From the NCBI GenBank assembly GCA_003518055.1, contig DOZJ01000002.1, forward strand, positions 55,225 through 119,224: 64,000 bases of DNA, given 5' to 3'. The notes beneath the pieces were generated by a model. It worked only from the letters and a program-made list of their open reading frames with translations. It was not told the origin of the DNA and did no database searches. Numbering within the stretch: the stretch's first letter is position 1; every line of letters begins with the position of its first letter. The stretch comes from Candidatus Falkowbacteria bacterium. Lineage in GTDB: Bacteria > Patescibacteriota > Patescibacteriia > UBA11705. A program made the position numbers and the translations under genes. Shown here in pieces: positions 11,791 through 53,209 of the stretch.

Positions 11791-12933
11791 ATGAGTTCAC
11801 ACGCAGCCAATAAGGTGGGGATTTCCAAACTTTATGTCAAATTCATCGCGGTCTTTGTTGTCTTGACCATAGTGTTGATTTTTGTCATCTTTTATTTTTC
11901 ATTTTCTCGCGCCTTGATCCGCATCACGCCCAAACCGGCGTCGGTCGCGACCGATTTTATCGCCGATATCAATACTCAGGATAATGAACCCACAGCCGGC
12001 ACGCTCAAAGGATTTCTATTTGAAACCGAGGTTGATATGACCAAGGAATATCCGGCCACCGGGACCAAGGATGCGGAGGGCAATGTCATCGGACAGGTTT
12101 CGATTATCAATAAACGGACTGTTAACCAGCCTCTCGTCGCGACTACTCGGCTGATCACGACTGATGGTGTGCTGCTGCGAATCAAAAACCGCGTGGATGT
12201 TCCCGCCGGCGGATCGGTCAATGCTGATGTTTACGCCGATGATCCATCGAGCTTTACCACCTTGGCGGCAACCAAATTTACCATTCCCGGCTTGTCTGAA
12301 AGCCTCCAAAACGAAGTGTACGCTGAGAGCAAAACTTCATTGAATAGCGCTCCCGGAGCGTTAAAAGTAGTCAAATCTGTTGATGTCGCCCGCGCCAAAG
12401 ATGATTTAACCGCCGCTTTATATCAAAAAGCTTTGGCTGATTTTGAAGCCGAGGTCAGCGAAGGTTACGTTGCGGTTTTGGTTGATAAAAAAGTGGTCGA
12501 AGAAGCGGTCAGCGCCGGTATCGATGATGTGGCGGAGACCTTTACTGTCCGGCAAAAGATGAATGTCACCCTGATTGGACTCGAACAGCCGGCGATCGTC
12601 AGCCTGTCGGCCGAGCGGTTGAGGGAACTCGTCACGGGCGAGCGGGAGTTGAGTGAGATAATGTTGGATAAATTAACTTACGTGGTGCAAAATTATAATC
12701 AGGAAAACAAAACCGCCAATATCAAAGTGCACGCCGAAGGTGAAACCGTATTAAAAGAAAACAGTGAAATTTTGGACAAAAGCAAAATCGCCGGCTTGAG
12801 CGACAAAGGGGTGGAATTATATCTCGATAGTTTTGATGAAATCGAATCAGTTGAAGTTCAGCTGTCGCCATTTTGGGTCAAACGCGTACCGTCTTTACCT
12901 GATAATATAGTTATCGAAGTGGTCACGGATTAG
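11791..12933 (+). CDS. Hypothetical membrane-anchored protein (single N-terminal TM)
   Basis: 380-aa ORF with a TM helix at residues about 17-38. No recognisable motifs. Confidence 0.5.
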   Translation: MSSHAANKVGISKLYVKFIAVFVVLTIVLIFVIFYFSFSRALIRITPKPASVATDFIADINTQDNEPTAGTLKGFLFETEVDMTKEYPATGTKDAEGNVIGQVSIINKRTVNQPLVATTRLITTDGVLLRIKNRVDVPAGGSVNADVYADDPSSFTTLAATKFTIPGLSESLQNEVYAESKTSLNSAPGALKVVKSVDVARAKDDLTAALYQKALADFEAEVSEGYVAVLVDKKVVEEAVSAGIDDVAETFTVRQKMNVTLIGLEQPAIVSLSAERLRELVTGERELSEIMLDKLTYVVQNYNQENKTANIKVHAEGETVLKENSEILDKSKIAGLSDKGVELYLDSFDEIESVEVQLSPFWVKRVPSLPDNIVIEVVTD

Positions 12934-36945: not shown

Positions 36946-37386
36946 ATGAATCAAGTCGGTTATTTAATTTCATTTATCATTGGATTGGTCTTGTTTGTTT
37001 TTGGTTTTTATTATCTGGCCAAAAGCCGCAAGATAAAGCACTGGCCGCGGGCTCAGGCCAAGGTTTTGAGCCGGCAAGTGATATTGTCCCAACAGCCGGC
37101 CGCTATTCATGACAACGAAATTGCTAAATATGAGGTAGCTATTGAATTTGAATATGTAGCCAACGGCCAGAAACTCCAAGCCGCCAATTTGTATCCATCT
37201 CATCACCTATATAGCCAAAAGCGGGCCGCCAAAGTTTTGGCCGAGCTGCCGCCATCAGCCATGATTTATTATAATCCGGATAAACCGGAAGAAGCCTATT
37301 TTTTGGCTGAACCGTATTGGATTTCAGTTGTAATCGTTATTTCCGGCTTTGTGCTGCTGCTGTTGGGGCTGCCATTCTTCTTCTGA
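36946..37386 (+). CDS. Membrane protein, DUF3592-like (two TM helices flanking a soluble domain)
   Basis: Architecture only. Confidence 0.4.
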   Translation: MNQVGYLISFIIGLVLFVFGFYYLAKSRKIKHWPRAQAKVLSRQVILSQQPAAIHDNEIAKYEVAIEFEYVANGQKLQAANLYPSHHLYSQKRAAKVLAELPPSAMIYYNPDKPEEAYFLAEPYWISVVIVISGFVLLLLGLPFFF

Positions 37387-37402: not shown

Positions 37403-37426
37403 AAACCGGCCTGGCCGGATTTTTTG
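37403..37426 (+). terminator. Rho-independent terminator (A6-ccggc-ctg-gccgg-T6)
   Basis: GC stem and T-run. Confidence 0.6.
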
Positions 37427-37519
37427 TATCCTAAACCTCCGATTGTTTATTGTGAAAAGCTAAGAAAATTATTGGAGTTATTTTTTTTTCTAAGTTTAAG
37501 CCAAATAATGAGTATGTAC

Positions 37520-37548
37520 TTGACGTTATGGAGGAAATATGATATAAT
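37520..37548 (+). promoter_or_regulatory. Consensus promoter TTGACG-17-TGaTATAAT
   Basis: ttgacg at 37520-37525. 17-nt spacer ending tga. tataat at 37543-37548. Confidence 0.6.
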
Positions 37549-37608
37549 ACTCTGATGTAAGCTCTTTTTCACGTTTGCCTCACAGGGGAAACCCAAGGAG
37601 AGAAGCGC

Positions 37609-38031
37609 ATGAAGATCTATAAGGGAGACCGCATCACGTTCAACCATACCACCAGGATGAGAGGCCGGATCAAGCTGATCGTGAGCTACACCAACGGAAT
37701 GGGGCCGTTGATCGGCGCCGACGAGGTCAAGATGCTGGCCGACTGGCTGGCGGCTGAGATCCGCAGTCGGGGGATCGTCCTCGACCAGTGTCGGCACATC
37801 ATGCTTCACCTGGCCCACACCGAGCAGCATCCCGGATACAACAGCCGCGAAGGTCAGCCGATCGTCGGCTGCTTCGCCACCGTCCAGATGTATATGGGAC
37901 GCAAGCTGGTCGTGAGCCACGCCACCACCTACCACGGCTTCTTCCAGGCCGCACACGGTATGCTCCGAGGAACCGTGCTGCCGTACATCGCGCGCATGGC
38001 GTCCAAGGAGACTGTCGCGGCCGTGGCCTAA
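37609..38031 (+). CDS. Hypothetical protein on a GC-rich single-gene islet
   Basis: 140 aa. SD 'aaggag' 8 nt upstream. GC-rich codons (CTG/GCC/GGC/CGC) contrast sharply with flanks. Antisense ORFs 37447..38043 and 37788..38336 are shadows. Confidence 0.6.
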   Translation: MKIYKGDRITFNHTTRMRGRIKLIVSYTNGMGPLIGADEVKMLADWLAAEIRSRGIVLDQCRHIMLHLAHTEQHPGYNSREGQPIVGCFATVQMYMGRKLVVSHATTYHGFFQAAHGMLRGTVLPYIARMASKETVAAVA

Positions 38032-38156
38032 CCGTCTACCCACCTCATCTCAGCCCGATTCAGGGCAAATTCCAAGCAAAACCAAACCACGCAATATCAT
38101 TTGCACCCTGGCATCTCAATGTCAGGTTTTTTGATTATTTATTTTTGTGGATTATA

Positions 38157-38211
38157 AAACTCCCGAGAATGTCATCCTGGATGTGTTTCAGGATCTGGTC
38201 TCGGGAGTTTT
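38157..38211. terminator. Long nested hairpin ('aaaactcccgaga' ... 'tctcgggagtttt' enclosing 'atcctg...caggat')
   Basis: 12-bp outer stem with A/T runs on both sides. Between the convergent genes 37609(+) and 38242(-). Confidence 0.45.
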
Positions 38212-38241
38212 ATCAGTATCTAATCAGTTACTCTTATTATG

Positions 38242-38709
38242 TTATTCGCGAACCACGTAAGTTTTCGCGATCATGTCATGCAGGCCTTGTTTTTTCTTGG
38301 TCCAGAAAATTATCAAAAAGCCAATGCCGAGGGTGATACCGCAGACAATGCCACCAACAATTTGTCTCAGCAGGACGACCGCCCACCAATTCATCTTGTT
38401 CTCATTTGCTTCTTTGATTAATTTCAATTTCAAAGCCATCATGCCCAGTGTTTGCTGCTTCAAAGCCAAGAAACAAATCACATAAACCAATCCGATCAAG
38501 CCGCCAAGATTGTTGGTCGCGTTTTCTGACATGAATGAACCGAGGATTCCGATCACAATCCCTAGAATTATCGCATCGATAATGTAGGCCAGAAATCGAA
38601 TCCAGCCACCGGCATAATGCGGTCCGCCGAGCGCCGGTTTTGACATGTCCGGTTGAGCAGCCATTGGCGTTGCCGCCGGCATCGACCCTTGAGATCTTTG
38701 TTCGTCCAT
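38242..38709 (-). CDS. RDD family membrane protein
   Basis: 'WIRFLAYIIDAII' and C-terminal 'QGLHDMIAKTYVV' typical of RDD domains. Confidence 0.7.
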   Translation of the reverse strand: MDEQRSQGSMPAATPMAAQPDMSKPALGGPHYAGGWIRFLAYIIDAIILGIVIGILGSFMSENATNNLGGLIGLVYVICFLALKQQTLGMMALKLKLIKEANENKMNWWAVVLLRQIVGGIVCGITLGIGFLIIFWTKKKQGLHDMIAKTYVVRE

Positions 38710-39147: not shown

Positions 39148-39432
39148 TCAATGGGTTTGACTTTCAACCAGTGTTTCTCTAATCATTTGCCTTAAAGTAG
39201 TTTTTCCTTTTGTTGTTTTAAAATATTTTTCGCGGCGCAAAGCGTCTTTTTTTGAAAGGTAGGCTTCGTAAAACACCAAAATCATTGGTAGCCTTTTGGC
39301 GGTAGAGACATTTTCGCCTCTCTGATGTTCAAGAACCCTTCGGTCAACCTCAGCCGAATATCCGATATAAAATTTATTATCCTTCAAGCTTTGAAGAACA
39401 TAAACGTAATAGAATTTTTTCACCATACTCAA
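39148..39432 (-). CDS. GIY-YIG nuclease family protein
   Basis: 'YVYVLQS...KFYIGYS...R...H' GIY-YIG core. 94 aa. Confidence 0.8.
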   Translation of the reverse strand: MSMVKKFYYVYVLQSLKDNKFYIGYSAEVDRRVLEHQRGENVSTAKRLPMILVFYEAYLSKKDALRREKYFKTTKGKTTLRQMIRETLVESQTH

Positions 39433-39493: not shown

Positions 39494-39567
39494 TGGCTCG
39501 AGGCCAGGGATTCGAACCCCGATAGCTGGGACCAAAACCCAGAGTCCTACCATTAGACGAGCCTCGA
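39494..39567 (-). tRNA. tRNA-Gln (anticodon UUG)
   Basis: Hand-folded cloverleaf, 74 nt. Acceptor UCGAGGC/GCCUCGA with U1-A72 and G73 (GlnRS identity elements). D-loop AAUGGUA. Anticodon loop UUUUGGU. T-arm CGGGG-UUCGAAU-CCCUG. CCA encoded. Confidence 0.8.
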
Positions 39568-52095: not shown

Positions 52096-52124
52096 TTGAC
52101 AATATTTATTAATTGTGATATAAT
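52096..52124 (+). promoter_or_regulatory. Consensus promoter TTGACA-17-TGaTATAAT
   Basis: ttgaca at 52096-52101. 17-nt spacer ending tga. tataat at 52119-52124. Confidence 0.6.
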
Positions 52125-52168
52125 TTTGTGTTGTTTTCCACCACGGAGAAGGTGAAAGGGGATACCGA

Positions 52169-53077
52169 ATGAGCAGTGCAGCCTTCGCCACTTTTCCAAT
52201 GTATGGCGCTTTTCAGTCTGCTGAAGAACACATGGGTATCAAGAACGCGCGCTGGCAGCCCGTGGCAGCGGAGTCTTTGCAGCAGCGGTTTGTTGAATTT
52301 TTGGAGCGCAATCGTGGTAATGTTGGAACCGTGAATCGTTTCATGAAGTGTATCGCGACCAGAGACGTGGCTGAGTTTAATCGCTTCATGGTGGAAAATC
52401 ATCATCCGGAAATGCAGCTTCAAAGCCTCGGTGATATGCAGTTCGCCGCCGGTGCGGTCATGGATGTGCTCGTCAAGTGGCTTCAGATCGGCGATCCCGT
52501 TGACATTTGCCAGTTCGGCCATCAGGGACCGACTTATCCTGGTGTTCATCTGAAGAAGGGCGTGACCGTTTACTCCACGGCTGAAGATCACGGCCGATGC
52601 GTGGTCAAGATCATCACGCAGGATCCGGATGTCGAAGTGCTTTTGATCAAGGCCAAACCAGGAGCCGATGATGACATGGACGGCCTGACTCTCACTGACC
52701 GCGGCCGGTTCATTATTGGCATGGTTGATCGGTTGCCCCGTTCCCGGACTTTTTCCGGTGTGGAATTTCCGATGGTGATGTTGGACACCGAACCGGATGT
52801 GAACTGGCTTTGCGGCTTGTCCACGGTTGACGACGGAGGGGTGCCGGCCTGGGTGGCTCAGGCGCGGATGCACGTCCGCCTGCGGGTCAACCTCGAAGGG
52901 GCGCGCGCTGAAGCTGCTTTTGAAATGGTTGTCCTTCGTGGCGGCGGCGATTTCAATCCGCCATATGTCATTGATGGTCCGTTTTACTTCATCATGCGCT
53001 ATCGCGGCGTGGATGAGCCGCTTCTGGTCGCCTACTGCGATGTGGATTCGTGGAAGGATCCGGGCAGTCTCGCTTAG
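52169..53077 (+). CDS. Hypothetical cytoplasmic protein (GC-rich)
   Basis: 302 aa. Extended SD 'ggagaaggtgaaagggg'. The antisense ORF 52109..53095 is His-rich low-complexity and is judged a shadow. Confidence 0.55.
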   Translation: MSSAAFATFPMYGAFQSAEEHMGIKNARWQPVAAESLQQRFVEFLERNRGNVGTVNRFMKCIATRDVAEFNRFMVENHHPEMQLQSLGDMQFAAGAVMDVLVKWLQIGDPVDICQFGHQGPTYPGVHLKKGVTVYSTAEDHGRCVVKIITQDPDVEVLLIKAKPGADDDMDGLTLTDRGRFIIGMVDRLPRSRTFSGVEFPMVMLDTEPDVNWLCGLSTVDDGGVPAWVAQARMHVRLRVNLEGARAEAAFEMVVLRGGGDFNPPYVIDGPFYFIMRYRGVDEPLLVAYCDVDSWKDPGSLA

Positions 53078-53209
53078 TTCGTACACTGATATCAATCAGT
53101 GTTTTTTTGTGCTTGTAGCGGAATCGGCATTTTTTCATTGATTGGTTGACAAATGAATGGTTATTTTATATCATTATATATCGTATCCACCACAGGAAGG
53201 AGCTGCCTG

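What the first reader, a model, noticed from the sequence alone, without database searches (positions are those of the whole stretch)
37520..38211. Self-contained GC-rich single-gene cassette (promoter-SD-140 aa ORF-nested terminator)
The sharpest compositional discontinuity in the window. A consensus promoter (TTGACG-17-TGaTATAAT) is followed by SD aaggag, a 140-aa ORF rich in CGC/GCC/CTG codons, then a long nested palindrome. It is inserted between an AT-richer membrane protein gene with its own terminator and a convergent RDD gene. This looks like a recently acquired or engineered-looking insertion.
Basis: seen in the sequence. Interest (0 to 1): 0.6.

Follow-up and report, generated by a model that had tools for sequence, protein, structure and literature searches.

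The report
Foreign GC-rich orphan gene cassette
A small gene with strongly foreign (GC-rich) codon usage and no detectable relative in about 15 billion proteins sits behind a host-type strong promoter in a Candidatus Falkowbacteria chromosome; the sister lineage carries a different GC-rich gene behind a matching promoter at the same spot, so this is a recent horizontal acquisition at a variable site.

Summary
The 140-aa ORF (37609-38031, +) is the strongest compositional outlier in the window: GC 0.62 and GC3 0.85, against a gene mean GC3 of 0.50 (sd 0.056, max 0.63). It has an 11/12 extended -10 promoter, an AAGGAG SD and its own intrinsic terminator (38107-38132). The "nested palindrome" (38154-38213) is more likely the ancestral bidirectional terminator of the convergent RDD gene.

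It is not a chimera. The sequence is 100% identical in every independent assembly that covers it.

The protein matched only itself in two sequence searches (5.8 billion clusters; 1.84 billion representatives).

More distant relatives keep pyrG-CoA-binding -> <- RDD with only a terminator hairpin between them, so empty sites exist.

The sister Falkowbacteria lineage has a matching promoter region at this site, followed by an unrelated 145-aa ORF that is also GC-rich. Synonymous sites between the two genomes are saturated. Both cargos therefore look recent, and the promoter looks resident.

Best reading: a horizontally acquired, moron-like single-gene cassette at an intergenic hot spot.

Nothing suggests engineering. 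This is a new variant of a known kind, of moderate interest.

The parts
36946..37386 (+). Upstream neighbour: a 146-aa DUF3592-like membrane protein with host-like composition (GC3 0.48). It matched only itself in the word-seeded protein search and is absent from the sister lineage.
37406..37426 (+). Intrinsic terminator of the upstream gene (CCGGCCTGGCCGG followed by a T-run).
37477..37572 (+). AT-rich promoter region that aligns with the sister lineage (about L091 7890-7773, minus strand). It comprises a T-run, CTAAGTTTAAG, the -35, the extended -10 and the first ~17 nt of the transcript (…AAGCTCTTTTTCAC). I interpret it as a resident, selectively constrained promoter.
   Evidence: Local alignment score 45 against shuffle mean 18 +- 2.5 (z about 11). 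This is the same range as orthologous promoter-bearing intergenic regions of the two genomes (z 11-26).
37520..37548 (+). Sigma-70-type promoter: TTGACG, 17 nt, TGaTATAAT (11/12 match, extended -10). The predicted transcription start is near 37556.
37573..37608 (+). Non-conserved, GC-richer part of the leader, with the SD AAGGAG at 37595-37600. The 5' junction of the foreign segment is at about 37573.
37609..38031 (+). 140-aa ORF (DF272_01355, hypothetical protein). GC 0.62, GC3 0.85, pI 9.9, no signal peptide. It matched only itself in both protein searches. The predicted fold is beta-beta-alpha-beta-beta-beta-alpha, resembling HPF/RaiA.
38032..38106 (+). C-rich, G-poor 3'UTR (C 0.37, G 0.12). 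It contains CCCACCTC and a small GCCC-N6-GGGC hairpin (38053-38066).
38107..38132 (+). The cassette's own intrinsic terminator: an 8-bp stem (CCTGGCAT…ATGTCAGG) followed by TTTTTT.
38154..38213 (.). Nested palindrome: a bidirectional terminator next to the RDD gene. I read it as orthologous to the single hairpin at this position in relatives. Its loop carries a GTCATCCTG…CAGGAT hairpin of a family seen in many Patescibacteria loci.
38242..38709 (-). Convergent RDD-family membrane protein gene. It served as the conserved anchor for finding relatives.

Best explanation
The element is a horizontally acquired, self-contained single-gene expression cassette. It sits in the intergenic hot spot between the convergent genes for a CoA-binding protein and an RDD protein, in a Candidatus Falkowbacteria (Patescibacteria/CPR) chromosome.

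Shown:
- The ORF has strongly foreign codon usage.
- No homologue was detected in two very large protein searches.
- More distant relatives have an empty site here.
- The sister lineage has a matching promoter region at the same place, followed by a different GC-rich ORF.

Inferred:
- The AT-rich promoter and first ~17 nt of leader (37477-37572) are resident and conserved by selection.
- The segment from about 37573 to 38132 (own SD, ORF, 3'UTR, terminator) was acquired from an unknown higher-GC donor after the two lineages split. It either replaced an earlier cargo or landed behind the same promoter.
- The gene is transcribed from about 37556, translated from the AAGGAG-ATG, and terminated at 38132, with the RDD terminator as a back-up.
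- The basic 15.7-kDa cytoplasmic product most likely adopts an HPF/RaiA-like alpha/beta fold. If so, it would bind the small ribosomal subunit and damp translation. This functional step is the weakest (about 0.3), because it rests on a low-confidence single-sequence model.
For: Composition and codon usage: (GC3 0.85 against 0.50 +- 0.056; period-3 p = 8e-13).

Expression signals.

Not an artefact: the sequence is 100% identical in every assembly covering it, across 10 loci from several runs and three sources (ENA, JGI, Logan). The flanks are the same in all those long enough to show them.

No detected homologue: only a self-hit among 5.8 billion clusters and in an exhaustive phmmer search of 1.84 billion representatives. 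No Pfam, PHROG, PADLOC, NCBIfam or PDB-sequence hit. No significant phage, plasmid or IMG/VR hit: one plasmid match at E = 0.3, nothing else.

Empty site: relatives found through RDD homologues keep pyrG-CoAb -> <- RDD with only one terminator hairpin between them. These are L095/L097 (165-180 nt) and L102 (45 nt). Others hold different insertions (L099, L101).

Sister lineage L091/92/93 (RDD 79% identical, genome GC 0.39): a 145-aa ORF with GC 0.61 and GC3 0.78, against a host value of about 0.38, sits at the same place. The two proteins are unrelated (BLASTP E = 4). The ORF DNA does not align (z 0.9). The predicted secondary structures differ. The promoter regions do align (z about 11), as orthologous promoter regions of these genomes do (z 11-26).

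Saturated synonymous divergence: 4-fold sites are 27-41% identical and NG86 dS is uncomputable for 7 of 8 genes.

Against: - No donor or homologue is known, so transfer is inferred from composition and distribution only.
- Only two genomes carry the promoter module. "Cargo replacement behind a resident promoter" therefore rests on n = 2.
- Part of the promoter similarity reflects a promoter style common in these organisms. Another promoter in the window (52096) scores almost as high against L091 because of its core and leader motifs. The upstream region of the unrelated locus L164 matches the window's as well as L091's does.
- No target-site duplication, terminal repeats, integrase or transposase was found, so the insertion mechanism is unknown.
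- The HPF resemblance has no sequence support (hhalign probability 0.07%; no Pfam S30AE hit) and comes from a pLDDT-60 model.
- There is no expression data and no population variation (all copies identical), so selection on the ORF cannot be measured.
Confidence: 0.6

Rival explanations
1. The whole unit, promoter included, is a portable expression cassette with conserved AT-rich 5' and 3' modules and variable GC-rich cargo. It moves between Patescibacteria genomes, for example by uptake of DNA and recombination through the conserved modules. On this reading the window and the sister lineage received related cassettes independently at the same hot spot.
For: - The 3' module of the sister cassette (L091 7262-7167) is homologous to the 3' module of an unrelated GC-rich cassette at a different locus in another contig (L187). 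The local score is 36 against 14.5 +- 2.3, and the nhmmer E-values are 1e-19 to 1e-21.
- L091 and L187 share an architecture: a GTCAYCCTGA hairpin, a T-run, a CTAAAnTTAG-like motif, a consensus promoter, GC-rich cargo and the 3' module.
- Further single-gene GC-rich units behind consensus promoters occur in L221, L164 and L074.
Against: - The window's own 3'UTR does not match that 3' module (pairwise p 0.07-0.34).
- The promoter similarity of L187, L221 and L164 to the window is within the range of unrelated consensus promoters, apart from one upstream match to L164.
- Alignment of the promoter region at the same chromosomal position, at the level of other orthologous promoter regions, is explained more simply by vertical descent.
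- No recombination sites or recombinase were found.
- No copy was found in IMG/VR.
Confidence: 0.2
2. The gene is native and lineage-specific. Its GC-rich codons are maintained by selection or biased gene conversion, and the window and sister ORFs are fast-evolving orthologues.
For: - Same position and a similar promoter in both lineages.
- Similar lengths (140 and 145 aa) and GC (0.62 and 0.61).
- Both 3'UTRs are C-rich and G-poor, with skew +0.51.
Against: - There is no protein or DNA similarity between the two ORFs, and their predicted secondary structures differ.
- The flanking proteins are 70-79% identical. Complete loss of similarity would need an extreme evolutionary rate, which is hard to reconcile with the very strong synonymous-site constraint this reading also needs.
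- The gene is absent from all other relatives.
- Highly expressed native genes such as L9 show no such bias.
Confidence: 0.06
3. The GC-rich stretch is a structured non-coding RNA gene driven by the strong promoter, and the ORF is a by-product of GC richness.
For: - GC-rich islands behind strong promoters in AT-rich genomes are often RNA genes.
- The transcript folds somewhat better than shuffles (z -2.7, 0 of 100 shuffles).
- Long ORFs occur in several frames of the region.
Against: - The period-3 composition is strong and typical of coding sequence (0.57/0.43/0.85, p = 8e-13).
- A well-placed SD and ATG are present.
- There is no Rfam match at the gathering threshold or at relaxed thresholds.
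- The antisense ORF merely mirrors GC3 as GC1.
Confidence: 0.03
4. Assembly chimera, contamination or an engineered construct.
For: The textbook promoter-SD-ORF-terminator layout and the abrupt composition change.
Against: - The sequence and flanks are identical in independent assemblies from several runs and three sources, on contigs of up to about 490 kb.
- There is no vector, plasmid or phage similarity.
- The sister lineage from other samples shows the same architecture with another cargo.
- The promoter is of the host's common type.
Confidence: 0.01

Closest known systems
Phage 'morons' (Juhala/Hendrix concept; summarised in PMC3594210)
   Same: - A single extra gene lies between two genes that are adjacent in related genomes.
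- It has its own sigma-70 promoter and its own intrinsic terminator.
[quoted passage not shown] PMC3594210 lists the promoter, terminator and GC-content features as what characterises morons.
   Different: - It is not in a phage or prophage. The neighbours are housekeeping genes (S41 protease, L9, pyrG, CoA-binding protein, MsrB/MsrA), and the ORF has no PHROG hit.
- The promoter appears to be resident and shared with the sister lineage, while the cargo differs.
Integron gene cassettes / CALINs
   Same: Unrelated single ORFs occupy the same site downstream of one conserved promoter in related genomes. The cargo is compositionally foreign and of unknown function.
   Different: - No integrase within +-10 kb.
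- No attC-like site was recognised by inspection or by the repeat search.
- There is one cassette, not an array.
- Each cargo carries its own SD and intrinsic terminator.
Ribosome hibernation factors HPF / RaiA (YfiA) / pY (Pfam PF02482, S30AE family)
   Same: - Foldseek agrees, and also finds a phage-encoded S30EA protein.
- It is a small cytoplasmic protein.
   Different: - No sequence similarity (no Pfam, NCBIfam or PDB-sequence hit; hhalign probability 0.07%).
- An extra N-terminal strand and a longer C-terminal helix.
- The model confidence is low (pLDDT 60).
- The promoter is constitutive-looking, not stress-regulated.
Core-gene-flanked accessory-gene hot spots (variable regions between conserved genes, as described for defence islands)
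   Same: The CoAb/RDD junction holds nothing, one gene or six genes, depending on the lineage. The wider CoAb-to-tRNA-Gln stretch differs between the two sister genomes and includes a HEPN_AbiU2 gene in L091.
   Different: The ORF has no PADLOC hit. There is no evidence that it acts in defence.

Membership tests
Phage moron | Extra gene between two genes that are adjacent in related genomes | tested here: met
   CoAb and RDD are adjacent in L095/L097/L102, with only a terminator hairpin between them.
Phage moron | Own promoter and own terminator | tested here: met
   An 11/12 extended -10 promoter at 37520-37548 and a hairpin plus T-run at 38107-38132. These are consensus and folding predictions only; there is no transcript data.
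Phage moron | Nucleotide composition different from the neighbours | tested here: met
   GC 0.62 and GC3 0.85, against 0.45 and 0.50 +- 0.056.
Phage moron | Resides in a phage or prophage genome | tested here: not met
   Genes within +-10 kb are housekeeping or unannotated, with no phage families among them. No PHROG hit. No tblastn hit in phage records or IMG/VR.
Integron gene cassette | attC recombination site at the 3' end of the cassette | tested here: inconclusive
   Inspection and the repeat search found no R''/R' (GTTRRRY) cores or typical imperfect palindrome. The hairpins present are a terminator and a 4-bp stem. No dedicated attC model was run.
Integron gene cassette | IntI integrase with attI and Pc next to the cassette | tested here: not met
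   No integrase or recombinase family among the genes within +-10 kb.
HPF/RaiA (PF02482, S30AE) | Sequence match to the family profile | tested here: not met
   - No Pfam hit at E <= 1.
- No NCBIfam hit.
- No PDB-sequence hit at E <= 10.
- hhalign against E. coli HPF+RaiA gives probability 0.07%.
HPF/RaiA (PF02482, S30AE) | beta-alpha-beta-beta-beta-alpha fold | tested here: inconclusive
   [not shown]
HPF/RaiA (PF02482, S30AE) | Binds the 30S decoding region and inactivates ribosomes | not testable with these tools
   Needs ribosome co-sedimentation, in vitro translation or cryo-EM.
tRNA-targeted genomic island | Integrase plus a direct repeat of the tRNA 3' end bounding the island | tested here: not met
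   tRNA-Gln lies 1.3 kb away (39494-39567). No integrase is present, and the RDD gene between the tRNA and the cassette is conserved in relatives. No search for a direct repeat of the tRNA 3' end was run.

The most novel reading that the evidence does not exclude
The CoAb/RDD site of this Falkowbacteria clade may be a conserved 'expression dock'. A resident strong promoter is kept by selection, and unrelated GC-rich foreign ORFs are repeatedly captured and replaced behind it, without an integrase.

These cargos may belong to a wider, undescribed class of single-gene GC-rich cassettes in Patescibacteria, which sometimes share 5' and 3' flanking modules (L091 and L187). The cargos might come from the higher-GC organisms these episymbionts live on. 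If so, they would be molecular clues to host identity.
Probability: 0.15. Interest if true: 0.7.

Novelty: new variant of a known kind. Interest (0 to 1): 0.42.

Why it matters
Patescibacteria have tiny genomes and are thought to depend on other cells, but how they gain new functions is poorly documented at the level of single events.

This locus captures such an event in detail. It shows the ancestral empty site, a promoter that appears to be conserved, and two different, compositionally fresh cargos in sister lineages.

If the pattern generalises, it would describe a simple way for streamlined genomes to test foreign genes at ready-made expression sites. The donors' codon signatures could also point to the unknown hosts of these bacteria.

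The protein is a family of one. If it really is an HPF-like ribosome binder, it would be a sequence-unrecognisable member of a universal translation-control fold.

If none of this holds, it remains an ordinary, well-delimited example of horizontal transfer.

Tried and rejected
Searches with the 140-aa protein that found nothing:
- Pfam, PHROGs, PADLOC, NCBIfam and PDB sequences gave no hit.
- tblastn against phage and plasmid records gave nothing significant (one Mesorhizobium plasmid match at E = 0.3), and the IMG/VR scan gave nothing.

Searches for relatives:
- The genome-contig scan with the DUF3592-like neighbour found nothing, not even the source genome.
- The scan with pyrG gave 80 loci, but the closest is 73% identical and lacks downstream synteny.
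- The DUF3592-like neighbour also matched only itself.

RNA-gene reading: no Rfam family at the gathering threshold or at E <= 5, so this reading was rejected.

Mobile-element signatures: no target-site duplication or terminal inverted repeats around the cassette.

Metagenome scan for the promoter pattern: the pattern was too generic. It did not return the known JGI copies, so it cannot be used to count family members.

Apparent similarity of the two 3'UTRs (window against L091): not significant by shuffling.

The L091/L187 3' module: not found in the window, in the other loci or in IMG/VR.

Structure of the sister 145-aa protein: pLDDT 40, unusable.

HPF at sequence level: no HPF homologue in the window or any fetched locus (phmmer), and hhalign was negative.

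The AlphaFold database library (afdb50) was unavailable for fold search.

Full report
**1. The observation**

The region reads as the first-stage reader described.

- **Composition.** In 423-nt sliding windows, the GC maximum of the whole 64-kb window is 0.629 at 37621 (mean 0.455, sd 0.046). The next peaks are 0.596.
- **Codon positions.** The ORF 37609-38031 has GC 0.617, with GC by codon position 0.57/0.43/0.85. This is the pattern of a real coding sequence from a high-GC genome (chi-square p = 8e-13).
- **Comparison with other genes.** Sixty other long ORFs of the window have GC3 0.50 +- 0.056, with a maximum of 0.63.
- **Codon choice.** All 10 Ile are ATC, all 6 Lys AAG, all 4 Phe TTC, all 4 Asp GAC and all 5 Gln CAG. 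The host uses these codons 41, 23, 28, 35 and 44% of the time.
- **Promoter.** TTGACG-17-TGaTATAAT at 37520-37548 is the only site above 9/12 in the 3 kb scanned.
- **SD.** AAGGAG at 37595-37600, 8 nt before the ATG.
- **Antisense ORF.** The 198-aa antisense ORF merely mirrors GC3 as GC1.

**2. Terminators**

The ORF has its own intrinsic terminator: an 8-bp stem plus TTTTTT at 38107-38132.

The nested palindrome (38154-38213) is real and very stable on both strands (-33.5/-31 kcal/mol, z -5.5/-7.5). It lies 29 nt from the stop codon of the convergent RDD gene. In relatives that lack the cassette, a single bidirectional hairpin of similar sequence occupies this position. I therefore assign it to the ancestral CoAb/RDD terminator, not to the cassette.

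**3. Not an artefact**

The exact protein is encoded on contigs from several independent runs and three sources: ENA assemblies of SRR2177951/53/56/86, Logan assemblies of SRR6482257 and SRR5855240/41, ERZ27254750 and JGI 3300009031. All are 100% identical to the window over the stretches they cover, up to 4 kb, and the neighbours are the same where the contig is long enough to show them.

The source names the protein as hypothetical protein DF272_01355 of a Candidatus Falkowbacteria bacterium.

**4. No homologue detected**

- The word-seeded search of 5.8 billion clusters returned only the protein itself.
- So did an exhaustive phmmer search of 1.84 billion representatives.
- Pfam, PHROGs, PADLOC, NCBIfam and PDB sequences gave nothing.
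- Phage records, plasmid records and IMG/VR gave nothing significant.

This needs context. The compositionally normal DUF3592-like neighbour also matched only itself, so the lineage is thinly sampled. Finding no homologue is therefore weaker evidence than the composition.

**5. Relatives and the empty site**

The RDD protein has homologues at 79, 63, 61, 60, 53 and 49% identity. Their contigs show that pyrG-CoA-binding -> <- RDD is the ancestral arrangement.

| Locus | RDD identity | Between CoAb and RDD |
|---|---|---|
| L095/L097 | 63% | 165-180 nt: simple repeats and one hairpin |
| L102 | 53% | 45 nt: one hairpin |
| L099 | 61% | a 101-aa ORF on the RDD strand |
| L101 | 49% | six genes |

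None of these has a promoter there.

**6. The sister lineage**

L091/L092/L093 come from three further assemblies. The source also names this organism Candidatus Falkowbacteria; the protein is PIR94215.1. It shares RDD at 79%, pyrG at 77% and S41 at 77% identity with the window. Its genomic GC is only 0.39.

Between CoAb and RDD it carries one ORF of 145 aa with GC 0.61 and GC3 0.78. The other 15 genes on that contig have GC3 0.18-0.43.

The two cargo proteins are unrelated:
- BLASTP gives E = 4.
- The ORF DNA does not align (z 0.9).
- The predicted secondary structures differ. One is alpha/beta, the other all-beta, although the second model is unreliable (pLDDT 40).

The AT-rich upstream regions do align: window 37477-37572 with about L091 7890-7773, including 16 identical bases around the -10 and the start of the leader (…AAG[CT]TCTTTT[TC]CAC). 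The score is 45 against 18 +- 2.5 for shuffles. The similarity stops where the GC-rich sequence begins.

**7. Is that promoter similarity orthology?**

Two controls bear on this.

- **(a) Divergence baseline.** Synonymous sites between the two genomes are saturated. Four-fold sites are 27-41% identical, and NG86 dS is uncomputable for 7 of 8 genes. Even so, orthologous promoter-bearing intergenic regions still align: PEGA|EPSP gives z 26 and S41|L9 gives z 11. Two other spacers do not align (z about 0). The cassette's upstream region (z 10.7) behaves like the conserved promoter regions.
- **(b) Promoter style.** Part of the similarity is generic. The window has 12 sites at 11/12 or better. The 52096 promoter scores nearly as well against L091 because of its core and a TTTTCCACCA leader motif. 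The upstream region of the unrelated locus L164 matches the window's as well as L091's does.

I conclude that vertical descent of a constrained promoter at this site is the simpler reading, but it is not proven.

**8. Consequence**

With synonymous sites saturated, a gene resident since the split would have drifted to the host's GC3 (0.50 and 0.38 in the two genomes). Both cargos sit 0.35-0.40 above their hosts. Either both were acquired after the split, behind the same promoter, or composition is actively maintained.

The second option fits poorly with the complete lack of similarity between the cargos and with their absence from all other relatives.

Each cargo brings its own SD, 3'UTR and terminator.

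The insertion mechanism is unknown. I found no duplications, terminal repeats, recombinase or attC-like site.

**9. Function**

The product is basic (pI 9.9), 15.7 kDa and has no signal peptide. There is a weak internal repeat, residues 1-19 against 91-109 (p about 0.007).

The single-sequence AlphaFold2 model has pLDDT 60 and pTM 0.51, with topology beta-beta-alpha-beta-beta-beta-alpha.

- Foldseek against PDB gives the same family.
- In the viral library, the second hit is a phage S30EA protein.

There is no sequence-level support, and no canonical HPF homologue was seen in the window or any fetched locus.

I treat "HPF-like ribosome binder" as the most likely function, with about 0.3 confidence.

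**10. Wider context, seen in passing**

Three hits showed the same anatomy: an AT-rich consensus promoter, an SD, a single GC-rich ORF and a terminator, in low-GC contigs.
- L221: a histidine-phosphatase-family protein, named by its source as Patescibacteria.
- L187: a Cys-rich secreted protein.
- L164: a membrane-anchored protein.

These are documented.

L074 is a mosaic of genes with GC3 0.32-0.38 and genes with GC3 0.83-0.88.

The 3' module of the sister cassette is clearly homologous to that of L187, at a different locus with a different cargo. It is absent from the window, the other loci and IMG/VR.

Together these hints keep alive a portable-cassette reading (rival 1). They also show that GC-rich foreign genes are not rare in Patescibacteria, which lowers the novelty of the single case.

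Horizontal transfer into Patescibacteria is documented in general terms (PMC12455944).

**11. Comparison with known kinds**

The unit meets the descriptive criteria of a phage moron: an extra gene between otherwise adjacent genes, its own promoter and terminator, and deviant GC (PMC3594210). It is not in a phage, so it works like a moron but is not a member.

It resembles an integron cassette only in showing different cargos behind one promoter. The integrase is absent and no attC was recognised.

**12. Verdict**

"Engineered" is not supported.

The locus is best described as a moron-like, horizontally acquired orphan gene at a Falkowbacteria intergenic hot spot. The notable twist is that the sister lineage has a different fresh cargo behind what looks like the same promoter.

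It is a new variant of a known kind. Interest is 0.42.

Noticed in passing
L091 7167-7950 (minus strand); also L092, L093: The sister Candidatus Falkowbacteria lineage carries an unrelated GC-rich 145-aa ORF (PIR94215.1; GC 0.61, GC3 0.78, in a 0.39-GC contig). It sits at the same CoAb/RDD site, behind a promoter region that aligns with the window's.
   Followed up: yes
L091 7262-7167 (minus) and L187 4091-4001 (minus): An ~90-nt 3' module (a small GC hairpin, a CA-rich tract, then a terminator) is homologous between two GC-rich cassettes that have different cargos and lie at different loci. The local score is 36 against 14.5 +- 2.3, and nhmmer gives E 1e-19 to 1e-21. It was not found in the window, the other loci or IMG/VR.
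   Followed up: partly
L221 12347-13080; L187 4001-5260 (minus); L164 1-310 (minus): Further single-gene GC-rich units (GC3 0.77-0.79 in L221 and L187) sit behind AT-rich consensus promoters in low-GC (0.35-0.41) contigs. They encode a His_Phos_1 protein, a Cys-rich secreted protein and a membrane-anchored protein.
   Followed up: partly
L074 (Parcubacteria BM519), whole locus: A kb-scale mosaic. Core genes have GC3 0.32-0.38. Five genes have GC3 0.83-0.88: a RidA-like protein, an M20 peptidase, a lipoprotein, a secreted protein and a 109-aa protein with a weak HTH match. A c-di-GMP-II riboswitch lies at 12065-12148.
   Followed up: partly
window 52096-53125 (+): A perfect 12/12 promoter (TTGACA-17-TGaTATAAT) with a TTTTCCACCAC leader drives a 302-aa ORF (52169-53077) with no Pfam hit and elevated GC (0.54; GC3 0.63, second highest in the window). 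A hairpin plus T-run follows. This is a milder cassette-like unit.
   Followed up: partly
window 38032-38106 and L091 7286-7200 (minus): Both cargo 3'UTRs are strongly C-rich and G-poor (C 0.37-0.39, G 0.12-0.13, skew +0.51). Only 1.2% of 75-nt windows in the 64 kb reach this skew. Both contain CCCACCT[CT] and a GCCC-N6-GGGC hairpin. The tract could be rut-like or anti-SD-like; this is unexplained.
   Followed up: partly
window 38171-38194 and 51013 (minus); L091 (two copies); L187; L013; L015; L047: A hairpin family GTCAYCCTGA…(TC)GAAGGRT/CAGGAT recurs in Patescibacteria loci, usually as or inside terminators. In L091 and L187 it lies just upstream of the cassette promoter. In the window it is nested in the RDD terminator.
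   Followed up: partly
about 13-44 nt upstream of the -35 in 12 promoters (23-30 nt in L091, L164, L187; a weaker version in the window at 37489-37499): A palindrome-like CTAAAnTTAG motif. It occurs in 12 of 121 consensus promoters, against about 2% background per 60 nt, and in 3 of the 5 promoters with GC-rich cargo. It may be a regulator site or an UP-like element.
   Followed up: partly
window 39148-39432 (-) and 39494-39567 (-): A 94-aa GIY-YIG protein gene with unusually low GC (0.36; GC3 0.35) lies next to tRNA-Gln. The stretch between RDD and the tRNA differs completely between the window and L091, which has rhomboid, NAGPA and HEPN_AbiU2 genes with GC as low as 0.23.
   Followed up: no
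L095 8507-8673; L097 864-1044: The empty CoAb/RDD site of these relatives holds tandem TTAGTAG and GAAAAAA repeats ahead of the terminator hairpin.
   Followed up: no
L088 (SRR5855241 contig), end = window 37418: One independent contig ends exactly at the terminator hairpin just upstream of the cassette. This could reflect low coverage or allelic heterogeneity at the site.
   Followed up: no
window 36946-37386: The DUF3592-like membrane protein gene has host-like composition, matched only itself in the protein search, and is absent from the sister lineage. It is a second lineage-specific addition at the same hot spot.
   Followed up: partly
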